64,000 nt of DNA from an uncultured Coriobacteriales bacterium (GCA_902464015.1 CABQHM010000001.1:91244-155243); one strand, 5' to 3'. Numbered from the stretch's first letter, positions 4,238-62,322 are shown. The notes: generated from the sequence alone by a model not told the origin. Numbers and translations: made by a program.

Positions 4238-4267
4238 GCCTGCATAGCTTCCATATTTCAAGCAACA

Positions 4268-4319: not shown

Positions 4320-4334
4320 CTTCCTCATTTCTGC

Positions 4335-5264: not shown

Positions 5265-5268
5265 ACGG

Positions 5269-34246: not shown

Positions 34247-36673
34247 TTACAGCTCCATGTTGGGCACCGCGTCGGCGGTGAGGGGCGCCGTCTCGCCGCG
34301 GTCGAACTTGCGGCGGGCGACGAGGGCAATCATTGCGGCGTTGTCGGTGCAGGCCGAAAGCGGCGGCAGGGTCACCCGCACATGGCGGCGGCCAAACGCC
34401 TGCTTGAAGGCCTCACGCAGCTCGGGGTTGGCTGTGACGCCGCCGCCGGCGCAGAAGTCGGTGACATGGCACTCGCGCACCGCCGTGACGGCCTTTGCCA
34501 CCTGCACGTCGACGACGGCAGCCTCGAAGCTTGCGGCAAGGTCGGGCAGGTTGATGGCACGACCGGCGGCGTTCTCGGCGTTGATGTAGGTGACGACGGC
34601 CGTCTTGAGGCCCGACAGCGAGAAGCGGTAGTCGTGGCTGTGCAGCATCGCGCGTGGGAAGTCGATGGCCTTGGGGTTGCCCGTCTTGGCAAGGCGGGAG
34701 ATGATGGGGCCGCCGGGATAGCCCAGACCGAGCGCCTTGGCCACCTTGTCGAACGCCTCGCCCACCGCGTCATCGAGCGTCTCGCCCAGAATGCGGTAGT
34801 CACCCCAGTCGCGCACGTGCACGAGCATGGTGTGGCCACCCGACAGCAGGCTCGCCACGAACGGCGGCTCGAGGTCAGGCGTCTCAAAGAGGTTGGCGAA
34901 GAGATGTCCCTCGAGGTGGTTCACGCACACGAGGGGCTTGTCAGCCGCCCAGGCAAGACCCTTGGCAAATGCCATGCCCACGACAAGCGCACCGACAAGA
35001 CCCGGACCCTGCGTGACGGCAACGGCGGCCAGGTCGTGCGGGGAAAGCATGGCGCCCAAGCCGAGCGCCTCGCCTGCCTGCTCCATGGTCTCCAGGTAGA
35101 CGCCCACAACGGCCTCGGTGTGTTTGCGCGAGGCAATCTCGGGCACGACGCCGCCGAAGCGGGCGTGAAAGTCAATCTGAGTGGCAACGACGTTGGCGAT
35201 GATCTTGCCCGCGCCGTCGATGACGGCCATGGCCGTCTCGTCGCAGCTGCTCTCAACCGCCAAAATGAGCTCGCCGGCCGCCTTGAGAGCCTCGGCCTGC
35301 TCGGGCGTGCGCTCAGGATAGACGGGCGGCCACGCGCAGGAGCACGCCTGGGGGCCGGGCTCGACATCGGGGTTGGGGGCGGTGTCTTTGAGCGGAAGCT
35401 GCGCGGCCATGATGCGCGCACCCACGCCCGGAGCGTAGTAGTTGGGGCGAATGCCCTGCTCAACATAGCCAAGACGCTCGTAGAGACGCTCGGCGGGGGC
35501 GTTGCCCACCTCAACCTCGAGCGTTGAGGTTGTAACGCCGAGCATCTGGGCGTCGTAGGCAACGCGGCCCATGAGGCGCGCGGCGATGCGCTCGCCTCGA
35601 CGCTCGGGGGCAACGGCGACGTTTGCAATCTGCAGCTCGCCGTCCACGACGGTGCCGCCCGCATAGCCCACGATGGTGCCGCGGTCATGCGCCACCCACC
35701 AGATATGGCCGGGAAGGGCAACGTCGTCGTAGAACACGCTCTCAGGCCAGGGCGTGTGGTGGGCATCGGCGAAGACAGCCGCCTCGAGCGCTGCCACGGC
35801 AGCGACGTCATTGACGCTCATGGGGCGCAGCTGCAGGTGGATGTCGCCCAGGGCGTCGTCGACGCCGCTCACGCGCACGCTTTCGGGCTCGGGCATGCCC
35901 AGGCGGATGCGCTCGTTTTCCTCGGCGTCGGACAGGCGCGTGTAGACAGGCAGGACAAGCGCGGGGTCGCCAGTCTCGGCTGCATCGAAGCGCTGCGCCG
36001 CCAGGCTTGCGCGCAAAAGGCCCTCGCCACTGGGGTACCAGGCCTCTTCGGGGGCAAAGCGAGCAAAACCCGCCTCCGCGTAGAGCGCGCGGTACTTGGC
36101 GATGCCGTCACCGGCAAGCACGATGTCGCCGGCGTCGGCACGACCGGCCCACAGGGCCACGGCGTCGGGGACCTTCATCACCGACTCGCTGGCAAACAGG
36201 CGATGTGCGCCCTCGTCGTCGACGCGATAGAGGCCGGGGTAGACCTCCTTGCGCATGGCATCGCCCACGACGCCCACTAGGCCGCGCACACCGCGGCGCC
36301 ACACGCCCCAGGCCACGGCGTCGAGCGTGGAGGTGCCGTGCAGCGCGACCTCAAGGCCACATGCCACGCCCTTGGCAGTCGCCACGCCGATGCGCACGCC
36401 CGTGAAGGAGCCCGGGCCCGTGCCCGTGAGCACCGCGTCGACCTCGTCGCGCTTCATGCCGCACTGGGCAAGCATGCCGTCAATCACGCTCACGAGCTGT
36501 TCGTTTGCGTGTCGGCGGCACATCTGGTCGGCGCTGGCGATCATCTCCAAGCCACAGGGGCTTCCCGCCTCGTCGACCTCCATGCGGCCCAAAGCGCAAG
36601 CCAGCATGTCGGTCGAGGTGTCAACGGCCAGAATGTTCCATGCGCACGGGGCGCCTTGCTTTACAGCATTCAC
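34247..36673 (-). CDS. tsaD: Triple-fusion protein TsaB - RimI - TsaD (t6A threonylcarbamoyl-transfer dimerisation partner, ribosomal-protein-alanine N-acetyltransferase, tRNA N6-adenosine threonylcarbamoyltransferase)
   Basis: A single 808-codon frame starting at a GTG. aa 12-250: ILAVDTST..GTGPGSFTGVRIG (TsaB). aa ~278-425: GNAT motif IANVAVAPERRGERIAARLM (RimI). aa ~468-808: LAVESSCDET..GGVVPEIASRKH..SGGHT..GYPGGP (TsaD). Confidence 0.8.
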   Translation of the reverse strand: MNAVKQGAPCAWNILAVDTSTDMLACALGRMEVDEAGSPCGLEMIASADQMCRRHANEQLVSVIDGMLAQCGMKRDEVDAVLTGTGPGSFTGVRIGVATAKGVACGLEVALHGTSTLDAVAWGVWRRGVRGLVGVVGDAMRKEVYPGLYRVDDEGAHRLFASESVMKVPDAVALWAGRADAGDIVLAGDGIAKYRALYAEAGFARFAPEEAWYPSGEGLLRASLAAQRFDAAETGDPALVLPVYTRLSDAEENERIRLGMPEPESVRVSGVDDALGDIHLQLRPMSVNDVAAVAALEAAVFADAHHTPWPESVFYDDVALPGHIWWVAHDRGTIVGYAGGTVVDGELQIANVAVAPERRGERIAARLMGRVAYDAQMLGVTTSTLEVEVGNAPAERLYERLGYVEQGIRPNYYAPGVGARIMAAQLPLKDTAPNPDVEPGPQACSCAWPPVYPERTPEQAEALKAAGELILAVESSCDETAMAVIDGAGKIIANVVATQIDFHARFGGVVPEIASRKHTEAVVGVYLETMEQAGEALGLGAMLSPHDLAAVAVTQGPGLVGALVVGMAFAKGLAWAADKPLVCVNHLEGHLFANLFETPDLEPPFVASLLSGGHTMLVHVRDWGDYRILGETLDDAVGEAFDKVAKALGLGYPGGPIISRLAKTGNPKAIDFPRAMLHSHDYRFSLSGLKTAVVTYINAENAAGRAINLPDLAASFEAAVVDVQVAKAVTAVRECHVTDFCAGGGVTANPELREAFKQAFGRRHVRVTLPPLSACTDNAAMIALVARRKFDRGETAPLTADAVPNMEL

Positions 36674-36741: not shown

Positions 36742-37266
36742 TTACAGGGAAAGCGCGTTGCGCTCAAACGCATGGGCAAGCTGGGCTGCCCTCTCCCCTG
36801 CTGCCGACAGTTCCACCACGCGCGCGGGCTCGGCGGCATCGGCACCCACGGGCTCGCGCGTGATGCGCACCTCAAGATGCTCGTCGCCCAATTCCTCGGC
36901 AAACATTTCCGCCCACTCTATGAGGCAGGCGCCGTCGTCCTCGAGGGCCTCGAACACGCCCACATCCTCAAGCTGGTCTGCGCTCTCGAGCCTGTAGAGG
37001 TCGAAGTGGAACAGCGGCATGCGCCCGGCGTCATGGACGCACATGATTTGAAACGTCGGGCTTGTGACAGGGCCCGCGTCGCCCAACCCGGCCGCCACGC
37101 CTCCCGTGAAGCACGTCTTGCCCGCGCCGAGGTCGCCGGTGAGAAAGACGACGTCGCCGGGCTCAAGGGCGCGGCCCAGCGCCTCGCCAAGGACACGCAT
37201 GGCTTGTGAGCTGGCACAACGGAAGCGACCGGGGCCCAGGACCTCAGGGGTTTCTTGCTGACTCAC
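36742..37266 (-). CDS. tsaE: tRNA t6A biosynthesis ATPase TsaE
   Basis: LTGDLGAGKTCF P-loop, SPTFQIM, FHFDLYRL. GTG start overlapping the udg stop (GTGA). Confidence 0.85.
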   Translation of the reverse strand: MSQQETPEVLGPGRFRCASSQAMRVLGEALGRALEPGDVVFLTGDLGAGKTCFTGGVAAGLGDAGPVTSPTFQIMCVHDAGRMPLFHFDLYRLESADQLEDVGVFEALEDDGACLIEWAEMFAEELGDEHLEVRITREPVGADAAEPARVVELSAAGERAAQLAHAFERNALSL

Positions 37267-37910
37267 CGAGCTTGCTCCTTTCCGGGGGCGGCAAGGCCCT
37301 CGGGCCTCACTTCGCCGCGCACAATCTGGCCCATGAGCCTAAAGTCGGCCTCAAGCGCCTCCATCTTGAACGGGTCGCGCAACACGGCCGCCGGGTGGAA
37401 CGTGGGCAGCACGTAGAAATGGCCCGTCTTGAACACCTTGCCGCGCAGGTGCGTGATGCCCGCCTCGGTGCGCAAGATAAAGCGCGTCGCCGGGTTGCCC
37501 ATCGGCATGATGACGTCGGGCCAGATGCTGCGAATCTGCTCACGTAGATAGGGCGAGCAGAGCTGGACCTCGTCGGGCCGGGGGTCGCGGTTGCCCGGTG
37601 GGCGGCACTTGAGGACGTTGGCGATGTAGACGTCCTCGCGGGGCATGAGCGCGGCCTGCGCAAGCATGCGGTCGAGCAACTCGCCGGCACGGCCCACGAA
37701 CGGCAGGCCCTGCTCGTCCTCGTTGGCACCCGGTGCCTCTCCCACAAGAACCACCCGGGCGTCTTGAGACCCCGTTCCAAAGACGATGTTGCGCCGCGTC
37801 TCGCACAACGGGCACAAGCGGCAGTCACCCAGCGCCGAGCGAATCTCCTCCAGCTTGACCTCACGGGCGTGAGGCGACGGATGACCAGGTATCTTCAAGA
37901 CGCAAGGCAT
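37263..37910 (-). CDS. udg: Uracil-DNA glycosylase, family 4
   Basis: C.LC..R (CRLCPLCETRRNIVFG), VLVGEAPGANEDEQGLPFVGRAG, NVLKCRPPGNR and HPAAVLR. Confidence 0.85.
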   Translation of the reverse strand: MPCVLKIPGHPSPHAREVKLEEIRSALGDCRLCPLCETRRNIVFGTGSQDARVVLVGEAPGANEDEQGLPFVGRAGELLDRMLAQAALMPREDVYIANVLKCRPPGNRDPRPDEVQLCSPYLREQIRSIWPDVIMPMGNPATRFILRTEAGITHLRGKVFKTGHFYVLPTFHPAAVLRDPFKMEALEADFRLMGQIVRGEVRPEGLAAPGKEQAR

Positions 37911-37973: not shown

Positions 37974-39140
37974 CTAGACGTACACCTTGGGCAGACGGAT
38001 GTCGAAAAGACAGGCAACCTCGTAGTTGATGGTGCCCATCTTCTCGGCAAGCTCCTCGATGCTCACAAACTCGTCGCCGTCGGAACCCACCAAGGTCACG
38101 ACGTCGCCCTCCTCAACGGGCTTGAAGCCGTCGGCGCCCGCCGCAAGCTCGGGCGGGACCTCAAACATGCACTGGTCCATGCAGATGTTGCCCACCTGGC
38201 GCAGGCGACGACCCTGGCAGAGCACCGAGAGGTTGTTGCTGTACACGCGCGACAGGCCGTCGGCATAGCCCACAGGGATGGTGCAGACCTGTGTGCCCTC
38301 ATGGGCGATGCGGTACGTCATGCCGTAGCCCACGCCCTCCCCCACGTTGGGCTGCACGGCACGGGTCACGCGGGCGCGCACGCTCATGGCCTGGGTGAGC
38401 TCGAGCTTGTCGCGCGTGGTGTCGGCCGGATGCAGGCCGTAGAGACCCACGCCCACGCGCACCATGTCGAAATGGTACTCGGGATGTAGCACCGTGGTGG
38501 GCGTGTTTGCGCAGTGCACGATGCCCGGGTCGATCCCTGCGGCGCGGATGGATGCCACCGCGTCCTGGAAGCGTCGCGCCTGGACGGTGAAGTCCCAGTC
38601 GGTGATGCGGTCGGCCGTGGCAAAGTGCGTGAACGTGCCGTCGACCTCGACGCCGAGCAGCTTGTCGGCCATGCGCATGAACTCGGCCGCGCAGTCAGGC
38701 GCGACGCCGATGCGGTCCATGCCCGTGTCGATGGCAAGGTGATAGCGGGCCTTCGTGCCCTGGGCAAGGGCCTCCTCGGAGAGCCTGCCCAGAAACTCGA
38801 GGTCATAGACGGCAGGCATGATACGGTGCTCGACAAGGGTGCCCACCGAGGAGATCGGGGGCTGGGCCAGCATGATGATGGGTTCGGTGATGCCGCCCTC
38901 GCGCAGGCGCACGCCTTCGGCGACCGTGGCGACGGCGAACATGTCCACACCCACGCTGCGCAGCGCCTGGGCGACGCGCACGGAACCATGACCATAGGCG
39001 TTGGCCTTCACGACCGCGCAGAAACGCGTGGGAGGCTGCGTGAACGACTTCCACGCACGGGCGTTCTTCTTTATGGCCTCCAGGTCGACCTCGACCCAAG
39101 CCCAACGGTCCTGTGGAAGCAGACGCTCATCTGGTAACAC
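37974..39140 (-). CDS. alr: Alanine racemase
   Basis: AVVKANAYGHG (PLP Lys), RIGVGLYG-type segment VGVGLYGL, GYADG. GTG start with GAGGAGG 4-5 nt upstream. Confidence 0.9.
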   Translation of the reverse strand: MLPDERLLPQDRWAWVEVDLEAIKKNARAWKSFTQPPTRFCAVVKANAYGHGSVRVAQALRSVGVDMFAVATVAEGVRLREGGITEPIIMLAQPPISSVGTLVEHRIMPAVYDLEFLGRLSEEALAQGTKARYHLAIDTGMDRIGVAPDCAAEFMRMADKLLGVEVDGTFTHFATADRITDWDFTVQARRFQDAVASIRAAGIDPGIVHCANTPTTVLHPEYHFDMVRVGVGLYGLHPADTTRDKLELTQAMSVRARVTRAVQPNVGEGVGYGMTYRIAHEGTQVCTIPVGYADGLSRVYSNNLSVLCQGRRLRQVGNICMDQCMFEVPPELAAGADGFKPVEEGDVVTLVGSDGDEFVSIEELAEKMGTINYEVACLFDIRLPKVYV

Positions 39141-39219
39141 GGTTCCTCCTCACTGGCGCGTCGTCGTTGGCGTGCGCGCGAATGCAAAACTGCAAATCGG
39201 ACAGTATAGCGCGCGGTCG

Positions 39220-41781
39220 TTACTTCTTGCGGCGAACACGATGGGCGCGAGGACGTTCCTGCACGGGCGTCACCTCATCTTCGCCGGCGCGCATCGTGGC
39301 ACGCTCATGAAACTCCTCCAGACGCGTCCGGCTTTCCTGACGCTGCCTGACATCGGGGCTCAAGTGCTCGGAGGAATCCGATACGGCCTGCTCGGACTCG
39401 CGCGCGGTGGCTGCCTGCGCCGTGGCACGGGCAATGTCTTCCAACGTGAGTGCGGGCATGACCGTAGTGGCGCATGCCGACGCAGGCATGGGCTTGGCCT
39501 GCGAGGAGGACGCCACTTGGCTCAGGAAAGCAGGGACGCCTGCGGGAGCCACCGGGGCCTGTTGCTCGACGGCACCCGCTTCAGCAGCGGAGGCCGCGTC
39601 GTTTGCACGTGCTTCCTTGTCGCTCCCCTCATCGGCCTTCGCCCTCTCGACCTTGGCAAGGAAGGCCGGGACGGCGCCCGTCTGAGCCGCCTTGGGGGCG
39701 GCGGGAACGACGGGCTTGGACAAGGACGGATCCTCGCCGGCCTGGACGACCTGGGCGGGGCGCTTGGGGGCAACGGTGGCACCGATGGCGGCAAGGAACG
39801 ACGGGATGCCCGCCGAAAGCTTCGCCGCCTTGGGCGCACTGGCTGTGGGGGCGTCGCCTTCCTCGACCGTCTCGCAGGCGACGGGCTTCTCGTCAGGCTC
39901 AGGCTCGCCCATCTCGCCGGCCTGCTCGGAGGCGTCCTCGACGTCTTCGACGTCCTCGGAATCCTCCTGCTCGGAGGCGTCCTCGTCGACGTCGTCGAGC
40001 TCGGGCTCGTCGAGATCTCCCTCGTAGGCGTGCACCTCGCCGGGAACCACAGGCTTGCGCACGGCGGCCTCGGCGGTGATCGAGTCGGTCACCTCGGGGG
40101 CGAGCGCAAGCTTCGGCTCGTCGTCAAGCTCGTCGTCGCCAGCCGCGGGGTCGGCATTGGCCGCAAGCACCGCGTGGGCGTACACGTCGTCGAACGCCAC
40201 GCCCACGAGGTCGATGAGGTCGGTCGCGATGACGCCGCGGGTGCCCACGCGCTTCACGGCCGCATCGGCCGCACGGGCCTGGATGCGCAGGGCCGCCGCA
40301 AGCATGAGCGCCAAGTCGGCCGAACCAACCTCGTCAGCGCCGAGGTCGCTCACCTGCTGGGAAAGAAGGCCAGCCACGATACCGGCGAGCACGTCGCCCG
40401 TACCTGCGGTGCCCAGGGCCGAGGGGCCGGCCTTGGGCACAAGCGTGGTCTCAATGCACGACACACAGCTCGTGGCGGCCTTTGCAACGACGGCGAAGTT
40501 GGACGAGCCCACCGCCCAGGCAAGGCTTTGGGCGGCATCCATCAGGTCGGTCAGGCAGCAGATGGAGCCCGTCTCCTTGCCGAGCAGGCGCGCCAGCTCG
40601 CGGGCATGGGGCGTGAGCACGAGCGGGGCCTCGCGGCGAAGGGCGTTGGGATGCACGTCGGCGTTGCCCAGGCAGATGCTGGCAGCGACGTTGAGCGCGT
40701 CGGCGTCGAGCACGAGGGGCGCCGACGATGCAATGAGGGCGCGCACGACCTCGCCGGCGCCAAACGAGGTGCCCATGCCGGGACCTGCGAGAACGCAGTC
40801 GGCCTTGGCGGCAAGATCGGACAGCTCCTGTGCGGCCGCGGCCTCAAACGTGCCGTCTTGCGCGGCAGGCAGGCCCACCACGGGAATGCTGAGGAGATGT
40901 GCCTGCGCAATGGGCACCACGGGCGCGGGAACGGCAAGCGTCACGTAGCCGGCGCCGCTGCGAGCCGCGGCCTTGGCCGCCATGATGGCCGCGCCGGGGA
41001 ACCGCGTCGAGCCCGCCACGACAAGGACGCGGCCGTGGCCGTACTTGTCGGCAAACTCGTCGCGCTCCGGCAGGGCGTCGAGGTAGTCGGCCTCGCCGAG
41101 CAGGTAGGCGCCCGCGGTGTCGGCAAGCTCCTCGGAGCCCTCGTCGTCGCCCACAAGGCTCGCCACCACAAGCTGGCCGGACGCCTGCTTGCCGAGGCCG
41201 GCGATGAGACCGGGCTTAAGGGCGAACATGGTGAGCGTCGTGTCAGCCTGGAAGAAGGGGCCTTCCGCCTCGCCCGTCGCGGCGTTGATGCCGCTGGGGA
41301 CGTCGACCGAGAGCACCATGCCCTCGAAATAGTCGTCGACGACCTCGACCCACATGTCGAACGGCTCGGACATCGCGCCCTTGAAACCCGTGCCGAACAC
41401 CGCGTCGATGACGACGTCGGCCTCCACCAGCAGGGCCGCGAGCTCCTCGTAGTCGGGTGCCACATGGACGGGGATACCGACGGTGCAGGCGCGCTGGGCT
41501 GCCTGGTGCGCCGCGGCGCTGCGGATGAGCGAGGGCTCGGCGGCAGTGACGACGTTGACCTCGAGACCGTGTCCGGCCAGGTAGTCAGCCGCCACCCAGC
41601 CGTCGCCGCCGTTGTTGCCTGGGCCGCAGAGCACAACGACGGCGCCCTGGTCGACCTCGCGCATGGCCTGCTGGGCGACGACCGTGCCCGCTCGGCGCAT
41701 GAGCTCGGCAGCATCGACGCCGCGCTGCTCAATGGCGGCCTCGAGTCCGGGTACATCGCGCACGTTCAGAACCGGCTGCAT
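39220..41781 (-). CDS. nnr: Bifunctional NAD(P)H-hydrate repair enzyme Nnr (epimerase + ADP-dependent dehydratase) with a ~330-aa low-complexity C-terminal extension
   Basis: LCGPGNNGGDG (YjeF_N), YGHGRVLVVAGS..GAAIMAA.. and TAGTGDVLAG (YjeF_C). A normal enzyme ends near aa 520. aa 545-853 are acidic and Ala/Pro-rich and carry three [IV]P[SA]FL motifs. Confidence 0.85.
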   Translation of the reverse strand: MQPVLNVRDVPGLEAAIEQRGVDAAELMRRAGTVVAQQAMREVDQGAVVVLCGPGNNGGDGWVAADYLAGHGLEVNVVTAAEPSLIRSAAAHQAAQRACTVGIPVHVAPDYEELAALLVEADVVIDAVFGTGFKGAMSEPFDMWVEVVDDYFEGMVLSVDVPSGINAATGEAEGPFFQADTTLTMFALKPGLIAGLGKQASGQLVVASLVGDDEGSEELADTAGAYLLGEADYLDALPERDEFADKYGHGRVLVVAGSTRFPGAAIMAAKAAARSGAGYVTLAVPAPVVPIAQAHLLSIPVVGLPAAQDGTFEAAAAQELSDLAAKADCVLAGPGMGTSFGAGEVVRALIASSAPLVLDADALNVAASICLGNADVHPNALRREAPLVLTPHARELARLLGKETGSICCLTDLMDAAQSLAWAVGSSNFAVVAKAATSCVSCIETTLVPKAGPSALGTAGTGDVLAGIVAGLLSQQVSDLGADEVGSADLALMLAAALRIQARAADAAVKRVGTRGVIATDLIDLVGVAFDDVYAHAVLAANADPAAGDDELDDEPKLALAPEVTDSITAEAAVRKPVVPGEVHAYEGDLDEPELDDVDEDASEQEDSEDVEDVEDASEQAGEMGEPEPDEKPVACETVEEGDAPTASAPKAAKLSAGIPSFLAAIGATVAPKRPAQVVQAGEDPSLSKPVVPAAPKAAQTGAVPAFLAKVERAKADEGSDKEARANDAASAAEAGAVEQQAPVAPAGVPAFLSQVASSSQAKPMPASACATTVMPALTLEDIARATAQAATARESEQAVSDSSEHLSPDVRQRQESRTRLEEFHERATMRAGEDEVTPVQERPRAHRVRRKK

Positions 41782-41791
41782 TGCATCACTC

Positions 41792-42271
41792 TCATTCTTG
41801 TGTGTCGAGCTCGTCCAAAAGCGAACGAACCTGCTTGAACTGCTGCGCTATCTGCGCTTTCTCGTCTTTCACATCGCGGGGGCGGGGCGGTTGGGACTCC
41901 TCGTCGGCCGCGAGGGCGTTGGCAATTGCAAGCCCGCCGGTGTGGGAGATGGAAAGGAAGACCTCGCTTATACCCTGGCTGGCGGCCGCTTCCTTGGCAC
42001 CACCCTCCAGGCGCGCCACGGGGCGGCCCTTGGAATCGTGGTCGACCCACACGTCGGCAAAGCCCACGCCCGAACCAAAGCCGGTGCCGAGCGCCTTGAG
42101 CACCGCCTCGCGGGCAGCGAAGAAACCCGCATAGGTCACGAACGGGTCACGGCGCCTGCTCGCCCACTCGCGTTCCTTCGGGGTAAAGACGCGCTCCTCA
42201 AAACGAGGCGTACGTTGAAGGATCTGTTTGATACGGTCAATCTCGACGATGTCGACGCCGATACCTGCCAC
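41792..42271 (-). CDS. acpS: Holo-[acyl-carrier-protein] synthase
   Basis: GIGVDIVEIDRI, FTPKE, EAVLKALG and SISHT. I prefer the GTG at 42271, which has 6-nt spacing to AGAGGA; the track start is the GTG at 42277. Has a ~35-aa C-terminal extension. Confidence 0.85.
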   Translation of the reverse strand: MAGIGVDIVEIDRIKQILQRTPRFEERVFTPKEREWASRRRDPFVTYAGFFAAREAVLKALGTGFGSGVGFADVWVDHDSKGRPVARLEGGAKEAAASQGISEVFLSISHTGGLAIANALAADEESQPPRPRDVKDEKAQIAQQFKQVRSLLDELDTQE

Positions 42272-42281
42272 GTACACTCCT

Positions 42282-44111
42282 CTACTCAGTCGTCACGGAC
42301 TTGGCAAGGTTGCGCGGCTTGTCAATGTCACAGCCACGCGCAAGGGCAACCTCGCGGGCAAGCTGCTGCAGTGCCACGGCAACGCTCACCGGATAAGCCC
42401 ACTCGGGTGCGGGCGGGACCCACATCATGCGGTCGGCAAGGGCAGCGACCTCGTCGTCGCCCTCGGTCGCAACCGCGCACACCGTAGCCCCGCGCGCCTT
42501 GATCTCGGCGATGTTGGAGACTGTCTTGGCGCGCACCGAATCGTCGGGCACAACCACGAGTACGGGGAAGCCGGGTTCAAGCAGGGCGATGGGCCCGTGC
42601 TTCATCTCGCCGGCGGCATAGGCCTCGGCATGCAGGTAGCTGACCTCCTTGAGCTTGAGGGCACCTTCCTCGGCGCTTGCGGCATTGAAGCCGCGACCCA
42701 GGAAGAGCGCACTTGCGGCGTTCTCGAAAGCGCCGGCGCACACGTTTGCCTGGTGCTTGCGGTCAAGCATCGCACGCAGCTGCCCGGGGATGGCTCGCAA
42801 GGCCGCCGCGCGCTCGCCGAAGTCGCGGCCCGTGAGGTTGCCGCGCGCCTGGGCGAGGAAGAGTGCCACAAGCGCCATGGCCACAAGCTGGGCGGTGTAG
42901 GCCTTGGTGGAGGCAACGGAAACCTCGGGGCCCGCTTGCAGGTAGATGGTGGCGTCGGCCTCGCGGGCGGCGGTGGAGCCCAGGACATTGGTCACCGCAA
43001 GCACCTTGGCACCGGCGGCCTTCATCTTGCGCGCCGCCATGAGCGTGTCGGCCGTCTCGCCCGACTGCGTGATGACGATGCACAGGGTGCGCTCGTTGAC
43101 GAGCACGTCGCGGTAGTTGAACTCGCTTGCAACATCAACCTCGACACGCAGGCGCGCCCACGACTCGATGAGGCGCTTGGCGTAGAGGCCCGCATGGTAG
43201 GAGGTGCCGCAGGCAACGATGTAGACCTGGTCGAGACCGGCGAGCTCCTCGTCGGTGATGTCAAGCTCGTCAAGCGTGACGCCCTGCGGCGTAAGTCTGC
43301 CCTCGAGCAAGCGCTCGATGGCCTGGGGCTGCTCGGAGATCTCCTTGGCCATGAAGTCGGGCCAACCGCCCAGACTCGCCGAAGAGGCGTCCCAGTCGAC
43401 ATGGAGGACCTCAGGGGTGACAGGGGCGCCCTGGGCATCGACAAGCTCAATGGTGCCATCGGCGCGCATGCGGCCGACCTGGCCATCTGCCAGCATAATC
43501 ATGTCATGCGTCATGCCGAGGAGCACCGTGAGGTCAGAGGCGCACGCGCAGCAGCCTTCTGTGCTCGCAAGCACCAAAGGAGATCCCTTGCGCGCGACGA
43601 CGACCTCACCCGGAAGCTCGGCACATACGACGGCGAGCGCGTAGGCGCCTTCGACCTGCGAGACCGCCTGCTGCACAGCGGCCATGAGGTCGCCCTCGTA
43701 GGCTGCCTCGACAAGGTGAACGACCACCTCGGTGTCGGTGTCGCTCGTAAAGCAATGGCCCTCGCTCACGAGACGCTCGCGCAGCTGGGCGTGGTTTTCG
43801 ATGATGCCGTTGTGCACGACGGCAAAGTTGCCCGAGCAGTCACGGAAGGGATGGGCGTTGCGCTCGGACGGAATGCCGTGCGTGGCCCAACGCGTATGGG
43901 CGATGCCGGTGCAGCCCGGCATGGGATCTGCCTGAGCCGCCTCCTCAAGCACCTTCACGCGACCCTTGCGGCGAATGCTGCGAAGAACCTTGTCTTGCGA
44001 GACGACGGCCAAACCCGCCGAGTCGTACCCGCGATACTCAAGTGCCTCAAGACCCTGGAGAAGAAACGGTTGAGCCTGATCATGGCCTACATATCCGACA
44101 ATGCCGCACAT
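42282..44111 (-). CDS. glmS: Glutamine--fructose-6-phosphate aminotransferase (isomerising)
   Basis: MCGIVGYVG (N-terminal Cys nucleophile), two SIS domains, C-terminal KPRNLAKSVTTE. Confidence 0.95.
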   Translation of the reverse strand: MCGIVGYVGHDQAQPFLLQGLEALEYRGYDSAGLAVVSQDKVLRSIRRKGRVKVLEEAAQADPMPGCTGIAHTRWATHGIPSERNAHPFRDCSGNFAVVHNGIIENHAQLRERLVSEGHCFTSDTDTEVVVHLVEAAYEGDLMAAVQQAVSQVEGAYALAVVCAELPGEVVVARKGSPLVLASTEGCCACASDLTVLLGMTHDMIMLADGQVGRMRADGTIELVDAQGAPVTPEVLHVDWDASSASLGGWPDFMAKEISEQPQAIERLLEGRLTPQGVTLDELDITDEELAGLDQVYIVACGTSYHAGLYAKRLIESWARLRVEVDVASEFNYRDVLVNERTLCIVITQSGETADTLMAARKMKAAGAKVLAVTNVLGSTAAREADATIYLQAGPEVSVASTKAYTAQLVAMALVALFLAQARGNLTGRDFGERAAALRAIPGQLRAMLDRKHQANVCAGAFENAASALFLGRGFNAASAEEGALKLKEVSYLHAEAYAAGEMKHGPIALLEPGFPVLVVVPDDSVRAKTVSNIAEIKARGATVCAVATEGDDEVAALADRMMWVPPAPEWAYPVSVAVALQQLAREVALARGCDIDKPRNLAKSVTTE

Positions 44112-45355: not shown

Positions 45356-46210
45356 CTACGCCTTGAGCGAAAGTACGGTAAGGGTCGCCGTGCCGAAATA
45401 CTCGTTGGTATAGGACTGCCAGGCGCTGTACTGGGCAGAGGAAGCCTGGCCGTACAGCTGGGAGGCAACGCTATATGCCGCAAAGGCCATCTGGTAGTTT
45501 GCCAGCTCACCATTGAAGTCGTAGGCCTCAAGAGCGCTTGCATAGGGGCTGCCGTCGGCCCACGTCTTGTTCTCAGCGTCCCAATCACTGCCGGCAAGCT
45601 CCACGATGTAGGCGGCATAGTCGGCATTGGCGGCAGAGTTGTCGCCGTCGGCAGGAGACTCAGGCGCCTGGGGAGACGAACCGATCGAGCCGCTCACCGT
45701 GTCGCGCAGCTTGGCCACTGCGGCACCCTCGGTGATGATGGTCTTGGCCTTTTCCTCATCGAGACCGTAGTAGTTGGCCACCGTGGCGAAGTCCTGAGCT
45801 CCCAAGGTGTTCTGCATGTAGGCAGAGACCTCGTCATCGCTCACTTCAATGCCGTTGGCCTGCACAAGGGTGCGCAGGATCTCGTTGCGCACGTAGGTAA
45901 GGATGTCCTCGGTGCTGGGAGTGGAGTAGGTGCCGTCGTCGTTCTTGCGCTGCTCGATGTTCGTGGCGTCCTCGATGACCATGCGCGCCGTGATCTCGGT
46001 GGCCTTGCCATCGTAGGTGTAGGCGGCAATGGCGTCGTCGAGCTGGTCTTCCGTGAGGTTCACCGGGCAGGCGACAAGCTTGGAGACCGTGTCGGCGAGC
46101 GATTCAGACTTCGCCTCGTCGGCAAAGGCCGATGCGGTTCCCGCGCAAGCAAGGGCCATCAGGCCGCCGGCAAGCATCTCACGGCGCGACATTGACGTGA
46201 TCATGGTCAT
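45356..46210 (-). CDS. Tat-signal secreted protein with a SurA-N-terminal-like chaperone region (no parvulin domain seen); paralogue of 61272-62300
   Basis: MSRREMLAGGLMALACAGTASAFA signal. ILTYVRNEILRTLVQANGIEVSDDEVSAYM resembles the SurA/PrsA N-domain. Collinear similarity to the 61272-62300 product through to the C-terminus (..TLTVLSLKA vs ..AIVIYTLRA). Confidence 0.5.
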   Translation of the reverse strand: MTMITSMSRREMLAGGLMALACAGTASAFADEAKSESLADTVSKLVACPVNLTEDQLDDAIAAYTYDGKATEITARMVIEDATNIEQRKNDDGTYSTPSTEDILTYVRNEILRTLVQANGIEVSDDEVSAYMQNTLGAQDFATVANYYGLDEEKAKTIITEGAAVAKLRDTVSGSIGSSPQAPESPADGDNSAANADYAAYIVELAGSDWDAENKTWADGSPYASALEAYDFNGELANYQMAFAAYSVASQLYGQASSAQYSAWQSYTNEYFGTATLTVLSLKA

Positions 46211-46398
46211 ACCCCTTTCGCACAGCACGGGGCAGACGACAGGTCCACCCCGCACACAGACGTTTGCATCATCATCCCTCAAAGCGAACGACTCACGAGG
46301 GCTGGGCGCCCACATCGCACAACAAGGGCATCCCTGAAGCGGGCACAAACAAAAAAAGCCCGCAGCGCATGCGCGTTGCGGGCTTTCTAAGAGACAAA

Positions 46399-46475
46399 TG
46401 GTGCCCCCAGCGGGGTTCGAACCCGCGATCTTCGCCTTGAAAGGGCGACGTCCTAGGCCGCTAGACGATGGGGAC
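46399..46475 (-). tRNA. tRNA-Glu (anticodon TTC), CCA encoded
   Basis: Reverse complement GTCCCCATCGTCTAGCGGCCTAGGACGTCGCCCTTTCAAGGCGAAGATCGCGGGTTCGAACCCCGCTGGGGGCACCA. It has a 7-bp acceptor stem, anticodon loop CTTTCAA, GTTCGAA T-loop, and is 77 nt long. Confidence 0.9.
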
Positions 46476-46531
46476 AGCGGACGTACATTATGCACAATCA
46501 CTTGCAGCTGTGCAAGACCATCAGCGATTCT

Positions 46532-48223
46532 TTACAACTCGAGTCGCTCCGACAAAGCCTTGTTCACAATCTTGAGTGCCTTGACGCGCGCATAGCGCTT
46601 GTCGTCGGACTGTATGATGTGCCACGGCGCATAGGGAGTGGACGTAAGACGCACCATGTCGTCGACGCACTCGTAGTACAGGTCGTTCTTGGCGCGGTTG
46701 CGCCAATCGTCGGGCGTGATCTTCCAGCGGCGAGCAGGATCGGCCTGGCGCGACTCGAAGCGTGCAAGCTGCTCGGCCGAACTCACGTCGATCCAGAACT
46801 TCACGAGCACGGCACCCCAGATACGCAGGTCATCCTCGAACTCGTTGATCTCGTCGTAGGCGCGGCGCCACTCGTCCTTGGTCGCAAACCCCTCGATGCG
46901 CTCCACAAGCACGCGACCATACCAGGTGCGATCGAAGATGGCGGTGTGACCCGAGCGCGGCAGGCGGTTCCAGAAGCGCCACAAGAAAGGACGGGCAAGC
47001 TCGTCGCGCGAGGCCGGGCCAATGGGGTTCACACGATACCCGCGCGCATCCATTGCGGCGGTGAGGCGCTTGATGTTGCCGCCCTTGCCGGCGGCGTCCC
47101 ACCCCTCGTAAGCCACGATGAGAGGAACCCTATGGCGGTACATCTCAAGCGACAGACGCGCCAGCTTCTCCTGCTCGCGCTTCAGCTCATGGTGGTACTC
47201 GTCGTCGCTGTCCATCTCGTGGGGCTTACGGCGCGAGCGGGCCAAGTCGGGCACCGTCTCCAACTCGAACCTCGAGGTAAGCTTGCTCGCGTCTCCCATA
47301 CGGCGCTTGGCCTTCTTTACCTCGCGGGCAAGGATCTCGGGCTCGCTGAGAATCTCGACGGGCTCTTCAGGTGCAGCAGACGGAGCTGCGGCAGCGCCGC
47401 CGGCGGGCGTCTCAAGCGCCTCGCCCTGGCCGATGGGCTGGTCGGGGTCGATGCCGCGGGCGCGCAGGCCTTCGTCCATGCGCCGGACGAGCTCCTCCAT
47501 AATCAAGATGTTGGAGTTGCGGCGAAACTCCGCCGGCACCAGGCACCACTGGTCCTTGGCCGAATCGCTCGTAAGCCAGCGCTCGTAGACCTGCACATAC
47601 TCGTCGTAGTGCTGAATCTGACGAATGTCGGACTGGTCGACCTTCCAGGCGCTCGCCTCGTCACCCATGAGCTCCATGAGCCGACGCGACTGCATCTTGC
47701 GGGTGATGTGCAGGAAGAACTTCACGATGATGAAGCCGTCGTCGGTGAGCTGGCGCTCAAAAGCGCGGGCGGACCTGATGTGCTCGCGCACCCGCTGGTC
47801 TGCCCGGGCTGCCATTTGCACGCGCGCGGCGCTGTCTTGACTCGGGTCTCCCTGCAGGCGTACGTCCTCCACCCAGGCGCGCGACAGTTCGTCGTAGTAG
47901 GCCTGGTCAAAGATGGTCATGGTGCCCCGCTTGCCCAAGCGCATCCAATAGCGCGCCATAAAGGGCAGGCGTCCCTCGTAGCCCACGGGCTCTTCCATCG
48001 TGTGCACGCTGTAGGCGCGCGAGTCAAGGTCAACCACGAGGTCGGAAATGCGGCTTCCCTTGCCTGAAGCGCCCCAACCCTCAAAGAGGATGACCGTGCC
48101 CATGTTTGCCTTGATGGCATGTTGCTGGAGAAGCGCCAGGCGCGTCTTCAGCTCCTCGCGCCGAGCCCGGTACTCATCGCGGCCCATCTCGGCGGGAAAC
48201 ACCATGTCCTTGAGTACGCCCAT
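46532..48223 (-). CDS. ppk2: Two-domain polyphosphate kinase 2 (PPK2; polyphosphate:AMP/ADP phosphotransferase type)
   Basis: Two PPK2 modules: ILFEGWGASGKGSRI..FDQAYY, and IVAYEGWDAAGKGGNI..FDRTWYGRVLVERIEG..PWHII. ATG at 48223 with AGGAGG upstream, 6 nt after the ccmD-like stop. Confidence 0.85.
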   Translation of the reverse strand: MGVLKDMVFPAEMGRDEYRARREELKTRLALLQQHAIKANMGTVILFEGWGASGKGSRISDLVVDLDSRAYSVHTMEEPVGYEGRLPFMARYWMRLGKRGTMTIFDQAYYDELSRAWVEDVRLQGDPSQDSAARVQMAARADQRVREHIRSARAFERQLTDDGFIIVKFFLHITRKMQSRRLMELMGDEASAWKVDQSDIRQIQHYDEYVQVYERWLTSDSAKDQWCLVPAEFRRNSNILIMEELVRRMDEGLRARGIDPDQPIGQGEALETPAGGAAAAPSAAPEEPVEILSEPEILAREVKKAKRRMGDASKLTSRFELETVPDLARSRRKPHEMDSDDEYHHELKREQEKLARLSLEMYRHRVPLIVAYEGWDAAGKGGNIKRLTAAMDARGYRVNPIGPASRDELARPFLWRFWNRLPRSGHTAIFDRTWYGRVLVERIEGFATKDEWRRAYDEINEFEDDLRIWGAVLVKFWIDVSSAEQLARFESRQADPARRWKITPDDWRNRAKNDLYYECVDDMVRLTSTPYAPWHIIQSDDKRYARVKALKIVNKALSERLEL

Positions 48224-48228
48224 ACGCT

Positions 48229-48417
48229 CTATTCCTCCTTGCGCTCGCGACGCTCGATGGCCTCCCTCAGGGCGTCGATGTCCTTCTGAGTCTTCTTCGT
48301 GCGGCTCAGCATCACGATGGCGAACACGAGAAGGATAACCCAAATGAGCGCGTAGCCGGCGATGAGATACGGGGCGGCGTCGATATTGGTGTAAAGCTCG
48401 GCAAGAACGGGATCCAT
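48229..48417 (-). CDS. ccmD: Small single-TM protein, CcmD-like (haem exporter subunit D), assigned by position
   Basis: 62 aa with one TM (YLIAGYALIWVILLVFAIVML) followed by a basic/acidic tail. It lies directly after ccmC, as ccmD does in System I operons. I have no sequence motif to verify the call. Confidence 0.5.
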   Translation of the reverse strand: MDPVLAELYTNIDAAPYLIAGYALIWVILLVFAIVMLSRTKKTQKDIDALREAIERRERKEE

Positions 48418-48465
48418 GGTTGGCTCCTTTGCTAGATACGACGAAACGACAGGCGACGGCCAAGA

Positions 48466-49233
48466 TTAGCGGGAAAGGTCTTCCCAGCGTTGCTTGAGCT
48501 CGGCAAGCTCCTCGGACTGCTCGGCAGTCCTCAGCGCCAGATGATAGAGGCCAAAAGCCACGAACATCATGCCGAAGATGCCGCAGATGAACGGGATGAG
48601 CATGGCAGGCTCAAGGCCGGAGTACGAGATCACCGGATGCAACGAGGAGGGCACCATGCGCGTGATGAAGTACGAGATAGGCGCATCGATGGCAGCGAGG
48701 ATGGAGAAGACACCCGACAGACGCGCGCGGCGCTCGGGGTCGTCGATGGCGGCACGCAGGATGAAGTAGGCCAGCGTGAGCATCGTGAGGATGAAGTACG
48801 TGGTGAGGCGCGGATCCCAAGTCCACCACACACCCCACTCGGCGCGGGTCCATGTGTCGCCCGAAACCATGGTGGCGCAGATGAAGACGAGGGCGATAAC
48901 CATGCAGGTCTTGCTGCGCAGGTCGTAGCGGGCCTCCTTCTTCACCAGGTAGAGCACGGCATAGACTGCCGCTACGATAATGAAGATGAACGAGACGATG
49001 GCAACAGGCACGTGGAAGTAGAAGATCTTCTGCGTGAGGACCTGCATGTGGTCGATGACGACGCCGCCAATGACATAGGTCTGGCTGAGCTCGAGGTCGC
49101 CGTTGACCATGGGTGCCTTGAGAAGCGCCCAGAGGAAATCGAACGTCGTGAGCAGAAGTCCCACGACCAGGGAGACGACGCCGGCCGTTCCCCAGTCGAA
49201 GCGCCTCTTCACCTTCGCTTCGGTTTGTGCCAT
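48466..49233 (-). CDS. ccmC: Haem exporter protein CcmC
   Basis: Trp-rich WWD-type motif WGVWWTWDPRLT and a polytopic membrane profile. ATG at 49233. Confidence 0.9.
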   Translation of the reverse strand: MAQTEAKVKRRFDWGTAGVVSLVVGLLLTTFDFLWALLKAPMVNGDLELSQTYVIGGVVIDHMQVLTQKIFYFHVPVAIVSFIFIIVAAVYAVLYLVKKEARYDLRSKTCMVIALVFICATMVSGDTWTRAEWGVWWTWDPRLTTYFILTMLTLAYFILRAAIDDPERRARLSGVFSILAAIDAPISYFITRMVPSSLHPVISYSGLEPAMLIPFICGIFGMMFVAFGLYHLALRTAEQSEELAELKQRWEDLSR

Positions 49234-49310
49234 GACAAGGTTCCTTTCTATAAGACATGCCGCCACGGCGCACATGGCAGCGGACACCGACCAAAAGGGC
49301 TGGCAGATGT

Positions 49311-50060: not shown

Positions 50061-50064
50061 AGTC

Positions 50065-50784: not shown

Positions 50785-50788
50785 GGGG

Positions 50789-53008: not shown

Positions 53009-53029
53009 CTTCAAACCTCTCCTTATGAG

Positions 53030-53704: not shown

Positions 53705-53869
53705 ATGAAAAAGCCCTCCCTCTCCACGTAGAGCAGATACATGCATTCAAAACAGCATGGTACCTGCCCGCCATGGGAAGGAAAGGCTTGAAAGGCTTTG
53801 TTGTGAAAATGCAACTTTTAAAACGATGAGCTACTCAGCTGCGAGAAATGGGCAACGAGCTGCGGATTC

Positions 53870-62300: not shown

Positions 62301-62322
62301 GACACGCTCTCCTGAAGTTTGA

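What the first reader, a model, noticed from the sequence alone, without database searches (positions are those of the whole stretch)
39220..40221. Nnr repair enzyme carries a 330-aa disordered tail with three [IV]P[SA]FL motifs at an exact 45-aa period
Seen in sequence:
- After the complete YjeF_N/YjeF_C enzyme (about aa 1-530) the frame continues through an acidic stretch (DEPELDDVDEDASEQEDSEDVEDVED).
- Then come GIPSFLA (aa 658-664, nt 39790-39810), AVPAFLA (aa 703-709, nt 39655-39675) and GVPAFLS (aa 748-754, nt 39520-39540).
- The protein ends in a basic terminus, RPRAHRVRRKK.

Established knowledge: the conserved C-terminal peptide of FtsZ has the form D-[IV]-P-x-F-[LM], for example IPAFLR. 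It is the docking site for FtsA, SepF, ZipA and others.

Inference: the tail may mimic that peptide, or use the same kind of short linear motif, to tether the protein to the divisome or the membrane. This is speculative.
Basis: partly seen in the sequence, partly recalled or inferred. Interest (0 to 1): 0.6.

Follow-up and report, generated by a model that had tools for sequence, protein, structure and literature searches.

The report
Repair enzyme with conserved docking-motif tail
A normal NAD(P)H-hydrate repair enzyme of an uncultured gut Coriobacteriia lineage carries a long, mostly disordered tail that is found only in this lineage and holds a few short, strictly conserved peptide motifs, one of which partly resembles the docking peptide of the cell-division protein FtsZ; what the tail binds is unknown.

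Summary
ORF 39220-41781 (-) encodes an 853-aa protein: a complete bifunctional Nnr (aa 1-~530) plus a 323-aa tail with IPSFL, VPAFL and VPAFL at aa 659, 704 and 749.

The tail is not a mis-joined ORF. About 40 protein clusters from independent assemblies, down to 47% enzyme identity, encode Nnr with a 230-680-aa tail in the same operon. The tail-less relatives Olsenella and Collinsella have the same gene order and no extra gene.

The tails are hypervariable but keep four islands:
- an N-proximal acidic/helical block;
- 1-3 copies of [VLM]-P-[PA]-F-L-[AS]-x-[AV] (43 copies in 27 tails, 0.05 expected);
- one TT[VI]M-type motif;
- a C-terminal FHxRAT...RP plus basic block.

The 45-aa period holds only in this species; spacing elsewhere is 17-112 aa.

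A tail profile searched against 1.84 billion proteins found only Nnr tails. Pfam, NCBIfam and PDB sequences gave no match.

The FtsZ comparison is partial. Pro, Phe and the hydrophobic flanks match. The Asp that is invariant in FtsZ is absent in 49 of 49 copies, and the motifs are internal. I could not test a partner.

Verdict: a new variant of a known enzyme carrying a docking tail built of short linear motifs (SLiMs). Divisome targeting is an open, minority hypothesis.

The parts
40192..41781 (-). Bifunctional NAD(P)H-hydrate epimerase/dehydratase (Nnr), aa 1-530; complete enzyme
   Evidence: Pfam YjeF_N 1.3e-38 and Carb_kinase 6.1e-34. NCBIfam yjeF_nterm and yjeF_cterm score above their cut-offs. 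PDB sequence match to T. maritima TM0922 Nnr, E = 4.9e-55. AlphaFold2 pLDDT above 90. Foldseek TM-score 0.85 to 3rss_A over 526 columns.
40000..40137 (-). N-proximal conserved tail block, aa 549-594 (DDELDDEPKLALAPEV..ITAEAA..PGEVHAYEGDLDEPE). Orthologue consensus: LEGDLAFEDESRIxPPPEVxRLI..PGELxxYxGxLEEPE.
   Evidence: Conserved columns in alignments A1 and A2. Predicted helix aa 562-574, pLDDT about 74; equivalent helix 569-583 in P0022.
39889..39999 (-). Acidic, indel-prone linker, aa 595-631 (LDDVDEDASEQEDSEDVEDVEDASEQ...). Net charge of aa 531-640 is -36.
   Evidence: A 9-nt tandem repeat lies at 39933-39958 and 45-nt direct repeats at 39921 and 39966. Population variants of 838 aa lack exactly the 15 aa between the two DASEQ repeats.
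39790..39810 (-). Motif copy 1, GIPSFLA (aa 658-664)
   Evidence: No variation at aa 654-668 among nine population variants.
39655..39675 (-). Motif copy 2, AVPAFLA (aa 703-709), followed by a predicted short helix aa 706-716
   Evidence: No variation at aa 699-719. Corresponds to VPAFLAQ in P0016 and P0017.
39520..39540 (-). Motif copy 3, GVPAFLS (aa 748-754)
   Evidence: No variation at aa 745-761. Corresponds to GVPAFLSQ in P0016 and P0017.
39448..39474 (-). Second short motif, CATTVMPAL (aa 770-778). Family pattern: T[TRQ][VIAQ][MLF][APR][PA].
   Evidence: Exactly one copy in 24 of 27 tails, against 0.11 expected over all 27 tails. Its order relative to the PFL motifs is permuted between lineages.
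39391..39447 (-). Predicted helix, aa 779-797 (TLEDIARATAQAATARESE)
   Evidence: AlphaFold2 helix 780-797, pLDDT about 55-72.
39223..39363 (-). C-terminal conserved block, aa 807-853 (LSPDV..RLEEFHERAT..DEVTPV.ERPRAHRVRRKK). Invariant H, R and P; nearly invariant F, A, T and P; basic end. The stop codon is at 39220-39222.
   Evidence: Alignment A3. One variable site in aa 802-853 within the species. Helix 809-828 with pLDDT up to 80; the equivalent helix in P0022 has a block mean pLDDT of 89.

Best explanation
The gene encodes a normal, complete Nnr metabolite-repair enzyme. In one lineage of uncultured Coriobacteriia it acquired a 3' extension. The extension encodes a flexible, mostly disordered tether carrying a small set of peptide docking elements.

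**Shown:**
- The tail is one ORF with the enzyme.
- It is restricted to this lineage.
- It has no homologue outside Nnr.
- It is hypervariable in length and sequence apart from four islands under purifying selection: an N-proximal acidic/helical block; 1-3 copies of [VLM]-P-[PA]-F-L-[AS]-x-[AV]; one TT[VI]M-type motif; and a C-terminal FHxRAT...RP plus basic block.
- The order and spacing of the short motifs are free.

**Inferred:**
- Each P-F-L copy is disordered on its own and forms a short hook or helix that places Phe, Leu and the first hydrophobic residue in a hydrophobic pocket of a partner protein.
- Several copies per chain, on an enzyme whose homologues are oligomers, would make the binding multivalent.
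- The result would be recruitment of NAD(P)HX repair to a particular place or complex, or regulation of the partner by the enzyme.

The partner is unknown. The most concrete candidate class is proteins that recognise the FtsZ C-terminal peptide (SepF, FtsA). I give that specific version about 15% (see rivals).
For: - **One ORF, real coding frame.** GC3 is 0.73-0.88 along the tail in this frame. The same 853-aa gene is called in an independent ENA assembly. About 40 clusters of 764-933 aa come from ENA, NCBI, JGI and Logan, plus a 1213-aa form, P0175.
- **Same operon.** Tail-bearing orthologues have acpS-nnr-alr-udg-tsaE. Tail-less Olsenella and Collinsella have the same order, an nnr of about 540 aa and no extra ORF.
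- **Motif conservation.** 43 motif copies in 27 tails against 0.05 expected. Pro, Phe and Leu are invariant in all 49 copies found by a pattern that fixes P and F and allows L or M.
- **Selection within the species.** The enzyme is 98-99% identical and the tail 90-93%, but no site varies in the three motif islands and only one varies in aa 802-853. Codons in the motifs differ synonymously between species.
- **Motif order is free.** The two short motifs occur in the orders FFT, TFF, FTF, FT and TF (F = P-F-L motif, T = TT[VI]M-type motif) in different lineages.
- **Structure prediction.** AlphaFold2 gives a confident enzyme core and pLDDT below 50 for most of the tail. Motif 2 has a short helix in the window protein. 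In P0022 the second motif forms helix 738-752, with block mean pLDDT 58-69.
- **No other home for the tail.** A profile search over 1.84 billion representatives gave 16 hits, all Nnr tails or fragments of them. The tail has no Pfam, NCBIfam or PDB-sequence match.
Against: - No partner, localisation or binding data exist; everything beyond 'conserved motifs in a disordered tail' is inference.
- AlphaFold2 confidence at the motifs is low, so even the helical tendency is weakly supported.
- One divergent orthologue (P0045) has a tail without the P-F-L motif, so the motif is not indispensable for keeping a tail.
- The oligomeric state of this Nnr was not determined here; the multivalency argument rests on general knowledge of YjeF_C homologues.
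Confidence: 0.6

Rival explanations
1. FtsZ C-terminal-peptide mimic. The P-F-L copies dock in the same pocket of SepF (or FtsA) that binds the FtsZ C-terminal peptide. This would place Nnr at the Z-ring or membrane, or let it compete with FtsZ for its anchor, coupling redox-cofactor damage to division.
For: - The core [VLM]-P-x-F-L matches the C. glutamicum FtsZ peptide DDLDVPSFLQ at V, P, F and L. P438 and F440 are two of the three strictly conserved residues, and binding is mainly hydrophobic, with Kd about 15 uM (PMC7118173).
- The peptide that follows often has R, K, H or Q at +2, loosely like the basic variable end of FtsZ (PMC9939409).
- Like the FtsZ peptide, the motif sits after a long disordered linker and has a helical tendency.
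- Metabolic enzymes that moonlight as FtsZ regulators are known, for example OpgH (PMC3723540).
Against: - The Asp described as fully conserved in the FtsZ peptide (PMC9939409; D436 in PMC7118173) is absent in 49 of 49 copies, and the preceding residues are never acidic.
- The motifs are 68-208 residues from the C-terminus.
- FtsZ, SepF and FtsA of this lineage were not available. No division gene lies in the 64-kb window: no FtsZ signature was found, and none of the roughly 35 proteins annotated hits a division family.
- Five-residue hydrophobic motifs can converge by chance on similar patterns.
Confidence: 0.15
2. Intramolecular or intersubunit regulation. The conserved islands fold back on the Nnr core or a neighbouring subunit and tune epimerase or dehydratase activity or oligomerisation, rather than binding another protein. 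The best candidates are the C-terminal FHxRAT helix and the N-proximal helix, and possibly the P-F-L copies.
For: The N-proximal and C-terminal helices reach the highest confidence in the tail, with block mean pLDDT 74-80 in the window protein and up to 89 in P0022. This would fit packing against something in the same chain. The invariant His, Arg and Thr in the C-terminal block could contact a nucleotide or the active site.
Against: The P-F-L motifs themselves stay at pLDDT about 35-69. Their variable copy number, order and distance from the core are unusual for a fixed intramolecular contact. Model coordinates and predicted aligned error (PAE) maps were not available, so contacts could not be checked.
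Confidence: 0.12
3. Direct membrane tether. The P-F-L helices and the basic C-terminus bind anionic membranes and hold the enzyme at the cell periphery.
For: Each motif is followed by an Ala/Val-rich helical stretch, often with Arg or Lys. The protein ends in a cluster of Arg and Lys. There are several copies per chain.
Against: Each motif has only two or three large hydrophobic residues. No Trp, or further Phe or Leu, is placed at helical intervals, unlike known membrane-targeting helices (general knowledge). Most of the tail is strongly acidic, with net charge -36 over aa 531-640.
Confidence: 0.07
4. Non-specific spacer or artefact. The tail is a translated former intergenic sequence or an assembly or annotation artefact with no specific function, and the motifs are leftovers of duplication.
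For: The tail is low in complexity and prone to indels. One NCBI assembly splits an orthologue into pieces of 614 and 278 aa. Motif copies 1 and 2 in this species arose by local duplication.
Against: The tail is retained as one ORF across roughly 40 clusters down to 47% enzyme identity. The islands do not vary within the species. Motif codons differ synonymously between species. Motif enrichment is about 800-fold.
Confidence: 0.03

Closest known systems
Canonical bifunctional Nnr / YjeF (T. maritima TM0922, E. coli YjeF)
   Same: Both domains are present and complete, with the same fold. The gene clusters with acpS and alr, as described for yjeF in several phyla (PMC5938422).
   Different: Characterised Nnr proteins end at about 500-540 aa. 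This lineage adds 230-680 residues with conserved motifs. No such extension is mentioned in the Nnr paper read, and my literature searches found no description of one.
FtsZ C-terminal conserved peptide (D-[IV]-P-x-F-[LM]; docking site for SepF, FtsA, ZipA and others)
   Same: It has a hydrophobic-Pro-x-Phe-Leu core, lies after a long disordered linker, has a tendency to fold on binding, and is often followed by a basic or polar residue.
   Different: The invariant Asp is missing in every copy. The motif is internal and present in 1-3 copies rather than being a single C-terminal peptide. It is attached to an enzyme, not a tubulin-like GTPase (PMC9939409, PMC7118173).
Metabolic enzymes that moonlight in cell-division control (OpgH, UgtP, GdhZ/KidO)
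   Same: The concept is the same: a metabolic enzyme with an added interaction surface could couple metabolism to the division machinery (PMC3723540; PMC7794046, which appears in the search list but was not read).
   Different: Those proteins were shown experimentally to act on FtsZ, and none is known to use a copy of the FtsZ docking peptide. Here there is only a sequence resemblance.
GarA/OdhI ETTS phosphorylation motif (relevant to the second motif, TT[VI]M)
   Same: It is a Thr-Thr pair followed by hydrophobic residues in an unstructured extension, often preceded by Asp or Glu, for example AAETTVFAPV in P0039 (PMC5448819).
   Different: No FHA (forkhead-associated) domain or Ser/Thr kinase gene was seen among the window proteins annotated. 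Phosphorylation is entirely untested. The resemblance is four or five residues long.
SSB C-terminal tip (D-D-D-I-P-F, or DDEPPF in actinobacteria; from memory)
   Same: A Pro-Phe hydrophobic tip at the end of a disordered tail serves as a docking hub.
   Different: The SSB tip needs the free C-terminal carboxylate and preceding acidic residues. The Nnr motifs are internal and not acidic. Rejected.

Membership tests
Bifunctional NAD(P)H-hydrate repair enzyme Nnr (YjeF) | N-terminal YjeF_N (epimerase) domain | tested here: met
   PF03853 E = 1.3e-38, covering positions 2-169 of 169. TIGR00197 scores 140.9 bits against a cut-off of 88.6.
Bifunctional NAD(P)H-hydrate repair enzyme Nnr (YjeF) | C-terminal carbohydrate-kinase-like (dehydratase) domain | tested here: met
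   PF01256 E = 6.1e-34. TIGR00196 scores 141.9 bits against a cut-off of 129.85.
Bifunctional NAD(P)H-hydrate repair enzyme Nnr (YjeF) | Full-length similarity in sequence and fold to a solved Nnr | tested here: met
   TM0922 matches at E = 4.9e-55 over aa 14-485. Foldseek gives TM-score 0.85 (normalised by target length) to 3rss_A. The full-length equivalog model PRK10565 scores only 196 bits against its cut-off of 703, so this is a divergent member, not an E. coli-type equivalog.
Bifunctional NAD(P)H-hydrate repair enzyme Nnr (YjeF) | Conserved epimerase lysine (K192 in E. coli YjeF, PMC5938422) | tested here: inconclusive
   K189, in the motif ALKPGL, is invariant in 29 and in 32 sequences and aligns with a Lys of TM0922. 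I did not align E. coli YjeF itself.
Bifunctional NAD(P)H-hydrate repair enzyme Nnr (YjeF) | Enzymatic activity on NAD(P)HX | not testable with these tools
   Needs a biochemical assay.
FtsZ C-terminal conserved peptide (or a mimic of it) | Invariant Asp just before the [IV]-P | tested here: not met
   Position -1 is A, P, G, S, Q or V in 49 of 49 copies and never D or E. The Asp is reported as fully conserved in FtsZ (PMC9939409; D436 in PMC7118173).
FtsZ C-terminal conserved peptide (or a mimic of it) | Invariant Pro and Phe two residues apart, flanked by hydrophobic residues | tested here: met
   Pro, Phe and Leu are invariant in all 49 copies; position 0 is V, L, M or I. The search pattern fixed P and F and restricted position 0 to V/I/L/M, so only the exclusive use of Leu at the last position is an independent result.
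FtsZ C-terminal conserved peptide (or a mimic of it) | Located within about 10 residues of the C-terminus, after a disordered linker | tested here: not met
   A disordered linker is present, but the motifs lie 68-208 residues from the C-terminus.
FtsZ C-terminal conserved peptide (or a mimic of it) | Binds SepF, FtsA, ZipA or another FtsZ-peptide receptor | not testable with these tools
   Complexes cannot be modelled here, and the lineage's SepF, FtsA and FtsZ sequences could not be retrieved.
Short linear motif in an intrinsically disordered region (generic class) | Short conserved island in a fast-evolving, unalignable, low-confidence region; position and copy number free | tested here: met

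The most novel reading that the evidence does not exclude
The P-F-L copies are working mimics of the FtsZ C-terminal docking peptide. Through them an oligomeric NAD(P)HX repair enzyme would occupy the FtsZ-binding pockets of SepF or FtsA. It would then either concentrate cofactor repair at the division site or membrane, or act as a metabolic brake or bundling factor on Z-ring anchoring. The TT[VI]M motif could serve as a Ser/Thr-kinase switch. This would be the first case of a metabolic enzyme that has evolved copies of the FtsZ 'grappling hook' peptide.
Probability: 0.12. Interest if true: 0.75.

Novelty: new variant of a known kind. Interest (0 to 1): 0.42.

Why it matters
Conserved short linear motifs in disordered regions are well mapped in eukaryotes but poorly mapped in bacteria. 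This locus is a clean natural example:
- A housekeeping repair enzyme gained a tail within one lineage, apparently by 3' extension and not by gene fusion.
- The tail carries four short elements under clear purifying selection, with free order, spacing and copy number.

It gives defined peptides of 8-15 residues that can be synthesised and used as baits to find a partner. If the partner turns out to be an FtsZ-peptide receptor, it would link cofactor damage repair to cell division. It would also show that the FtsZ docking pocket is used by proteins other than FtsZ.

It is also relevant to the published suggestion that Nnr/YjeF has a second function (PMC5938422).

If no partner is found, the locus remains a lineage-specific oddity of modest importance.

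Tried and rejected
- **Mis-joined or separate ORF: rejected.** There is no stop codon, GC3 is coding-like throughout, the same gene is called in independent assemblies, and no stand-alone homologue of the tail exists.
- **Antisense ORF 39001-41838 (+), 945 aa: rejected.** It is a shadow ORF of a high-GC gene. Its GC3 is lower (0.75 against 0.83), and all the conservation is explained by the minus frame.
- **135-nt tandem DNA repeat as the source of the period.** TRF finds none. Only short matches at 77-93% identity occur at spacing 135/138. I read this as an old local duplication, not a repeat array.
- **First search with the tail alone.** It returned only four hits of at least 90% identity, because low-complexity words filled the candidate list. 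Searching with the enzyme domain and reading off protein lengths solved this.
- **Profile of the C-terminal block alone.** It found only six short fragments and was uninformative.
- **Genome-contig scan with the Nnr alignment.** It gave useful negative controls (Olsenella, Collinsella) but no named tail-bearing genome.
- **Taxonomy.** Cluster look-ups give only 'Coriobacteriaceae bacterium' or 'Coriobacteriales bacterium' MAGs.
- **FtsZ, SepF and FtsA of the lineage.** They are not in the window: no GGGTG[ST]G signature and no division genes at the window ends.
- **Literature searches.** Searching for the peptide strings returned only casein peptides. I found no paper linking YjeF/Nnr to FtsZ.
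- **SSB-tip analogy and beta-clamp motif.** I considered both from memory and rejected them on sequence grounds.
- **Other copies of the motif.** In the window they lie only in frames judged non-coding by GC3. The flanks of three orthologous loci have none.
Full report
**1. What is there**

The minus-strand ORF 39220-41781 encodes 853 aa. It sits in a conserved operon, confirmed in an independent assembly that carries the identical protein (the TsaB-RimI-TsaD Pfam domains are):

| Gene | Window coordinates |
|---|---|
| rplM-rpsI | upstream |
| glmS | 42282-44111 |
| acpS | 41792-42271 |
| nnr | 39220-41781 |
| alr | 37974-39140 |
| UDG-family gene | 37263-37910 |
| tsaE | 36742-37266 |
| tsaB-rimI-tsaD fusion | 34247-36673 |

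- Residues 1 to about 530 are a complete bifunctional NAD(P)H-hydrate repair enzyme.
  - Pfam finds YjeF_N and Carb_kinase.
  - NCBIfam yjeF_nterm and yjeF_cterm score above their cut-offs.
  - The T. maritima Nnr TM0922 matches at E = 4.9e-55.
  - AlphaFold2 gives pLDDT above 90, and Foldseek gives TM-score 0.85 to 3rss_A.
- Clustering of yjeF with alr and acpS is already described (PMC5938422).
- Exact look-ups of neighbouring proteins give 'Coriobacteriaceae bacterium' MAGs.
- The window also carries Ccm cytochrome c maturation genes and cobalamin genes.

**2.

- Shuffling the tail gives three such motifs in none of 100,000 trials.
- No other likely coding frame in the window has the motif.
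- Third-position GC is coding-like along the whole tail.
- AlphaFold2 predicts most of the tail as low confidence (pLDDT below 50). Helices are predicted at aa 562-574, 706-716, 780-797 and 809-828.

**3. The tail is a conserved feature of one lineage, not an artefact**

- A search with the enzyme domain alone returned about 40 clusters of 764-933 aa, down to 47% identity. All closer-than-50% homologues from Atopobiaceae and related families are about 540 aa.
- Tail-bearing orthologues from JGI and NCBI assemblies have the same operon.
- Olsenella and Collinsella have the same gene order, an nnr of about 540 aa and no additional ORF.
- The tail therefore looks like a 3' extension that arose within the lineage. 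It does not look like a fusion with a pre-existing gene.
- A profile of 21 tails searched against 1.84 billion representative proteins found 16 hits. All are Nnr tails or fragments of them, including a 1213-aa Nnr with a tail of about 680 aa.
- The tail has no match in Pfam, NCBIfam or PDB sequences.

**4. Anatomy of the tail**

Alignments show hypervariable, Ala/Pro/Glu/Asp-rich linkers with four conserved islands.

- **(a) N-proximal block.** Consensus LEGDLAFEDESRIxPPPEVxRLI...PGELxxYxGxLEEPE; window aa 549-594.
- **(b) The P-F-L motif.** There are 1-3 copies of [AGSP]-x-[VLM]-P-[PA]-F-L-[AS]-[RAQKH]-[AV]-[VA]. Forty-three copies occur in 27 tails against 0.05 expected. In the 49 copies collected, Pro, Phe and Leu are invariant, although the search pattern itself fixed P and F.
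- **(c) A TT[VI]M-type motif.** Exactly one copy (window CATTVMPAL, aa 770-778) occurs in 24 of 27 tails, against 0.11 expected over all 27 tails.
- **(d) C-terminal block.** [LV]E.FH.[RK]AT......P...RP followed by a basic end, with invariant H, R and P.

Further properties:
- The order of (b) and (c) differs between lineages: FFT, TFF, FTF, FT and TF, where F is the P-F-L motif and T the TT[VI]M-type motif.
- Spacing between P-F-L copies ranges from 17 to 112 aa.
- Within the window's own species the enzyme is 98-99% identical and the tail only 90-93%. No site varies in aa 654-668, 699-719 or 745-761, and only one varies in aa 802-853.
- Motif codons differ synonymously between species.
- The acidic linker carries a 15-aa insertion/deletion polymorphism that lies exactly between two 45-nt direct repeats.

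Together this is the signature of short linear motifs on a disordered tether.

**5. The 45-aa period**

- The spacing is exact in all nine population variants.
- The sister species P0016 and P0017 have two copies, 58-64 aa apart.
- Units 1 and 2 of the window protein share APKAA..G.P.FLA (z = 4.1).
- The extra copy therefore arose by a local duplication of about 135 nt. The period has no conserved structural meaning.

**6. The FtsZ comparison**

- The C. glutamicum peptide DDLDVPSFLQ binds a mostly hydrophobic pocket of the SepF dimer. D436, P438 and F440 are strictly conserved, and Kd is about 15 uM (PMC7118173).
- The Nnr motif shares V/L/M, P, F and L, follows a disordered linker, and is predicted to form a short helix: aa 706-716 in the window protein and aa 738-752 in P0022.
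- It lacks the Asp in 49 of 49 copies, has no acidic residues before it, and lies 68-208 residues from the C-terminus.
- It therefore fails two defining features of the FtsZ peptide while sharing its hydrophobic core.
- That lowers 'it is an FtsZ-peptide copy' more than 'it docks in a similar kind of hydrophobic pocket'.
- I could not obtain FtsZ, SepF or FtsA from this lineage, and I could not model complexes. The partner is untested.

**7. Most likely mechanism**

- I commit to a flexible docking tail. The P-F-L copies, and probably the C-terminal helix and the TT[VI]M motif, bind partner surfaces. They would do so multivalently, because several copies sit on an enzyme whose homologues are oligomeric.
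- The effect would be to place or regulate the repair enzyme (confidence 0.6).

| Rival | Confidence |
|---|---|
| Docking to an FtsZ-peptide receptor | 0.15 |
| Intramolecular regulation (suggested mainly by the relatively confident N-proximal and C-terminal helices) | 0.12 |
| Direct membrane binding | 0.07 |
| Spacer or artefact | 0.03 |

**8. Novelty and score**

- The enzyme is known. I found no description of the tail in Pfam, NCBIfam, PDB sequences or the literature searched.
- It is confined to one uncultured lineage that is nevertheless common in metagenomes; neighbouring proteins are seen on 1000 or more contigs.
- I classify it as a new variant of a known kind.
- Interest is moderate (0.42). 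The pattern of sequence constraint is clear and gives directly testable peptides, but the functional reading is speculative and the most exciting version fails one defining feature.

Noticed in passing
window 39448-39474 (-), aa 770-778; same motif in orthologues P0016-P0046: A second conserved short motif, T[TRQ][VIAQ][MLF][APR][PA] (DATTVMAPV-like), occurs exactly once in 24 of 27 tails, against 0.11 expected over all 27 tails. Variants such as AAETTVFAPV and GETTILPPV recall the GarA/OdhI ETTS phospho-acceptor motif, so it could be a Ser/Thr-kinase site.
   Followed up: partly
window 39889-40010 (-), acidic linker: A 15-aa insertion/deletion polymorphism (853-aa against 838-aa variants) lies exactly between two 45-nt direct repeats (39921-39965 and 39966-40010) and next to a 9-nt tandem repeat. 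It looks like repeat-mediated slippage within a coding disordered region.
   Followed up: partly
window 34247-36673 (-): A single 808-aa protein combines a TsaB-like domain, a GNAT acetyltransferase (RimI-like) and TsaD. The triple fusion is also present in the orthologous loci L082 (835 aa) and L084 (802 aa).
   Followed up: partly
window 37263-37910 (-): A UDG-superfamily gene sits between alr and tsaE and overlaps tsaE by 4 nt. ORFs of matching size and position occur in the Olsenella and Collinsella loci. This is an unexpected but conserved member of the nnr-alr-tsaE operon.
   Followed up: partly
window 48466-53746 (-): A system-I cytochrome c maturation cluster (CcmC-like, CcmB, CcmA, CcmF, CcmE) suggests a respiratory, Eggerthellaceae-like lifestyle for this 'Coriobacteriaceae bacterium'.
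   Followed up: no
window 63107-63595 (-): Ribosomal protein L31 carries a C-terminal extension of about 65 aa rich in Ala, Lys and Glu ([34 protein letters not shown]...). It is another low-complexity tail on a housekeeping protein in the same genome.
   Followed up: no
window 45356-46501 (-) and 61272-62387 (-): Two proteins with no Pfam match share a C-terminal region of about 250 aa (…YTY.G..….ITAR..IE…DEV.AYMQ…), judged by eye. One has a signal-like N-terminus, the other a Gln-rich N-terminus and a predicted membrane helix. They look like an uncharacterised paralogue pair.
   Followed up: no
window 46532-48463 (-): A 643-aa polyphosphate kinase 2 with two PPK2 matches (a two-domain form) lies next to the ccm cluster.
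   Followed up: no
window 412-6567 (+): The cobalamin genes cobU, cobS and cbiK are followed by a NEAT-domain protein and a periplasmic binding protein. This may be a corrinoid or haem uptake module.
   Followed up: no
P0045 (919 aa; 'Coriobacteriales bacterium' MBR2835062.1): The most divergent tail-bearing orthologue has lost the P-F-L motif but keeps the TT motif and the C-terminal block. In place of the P-F-L motif it has a run of acidic Phe-containing repeats (EQVAEFAEEFVEQPVEEFIEEPF).
   Followed up: no
cluster of P0017: One NCBI assembly splits the orthologue into proteins of 614 and 278 aa on the same contig, while other members are 907 aa. This is probably a frameshift or assembly error in the low-complexity tail.
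   Followed up: no
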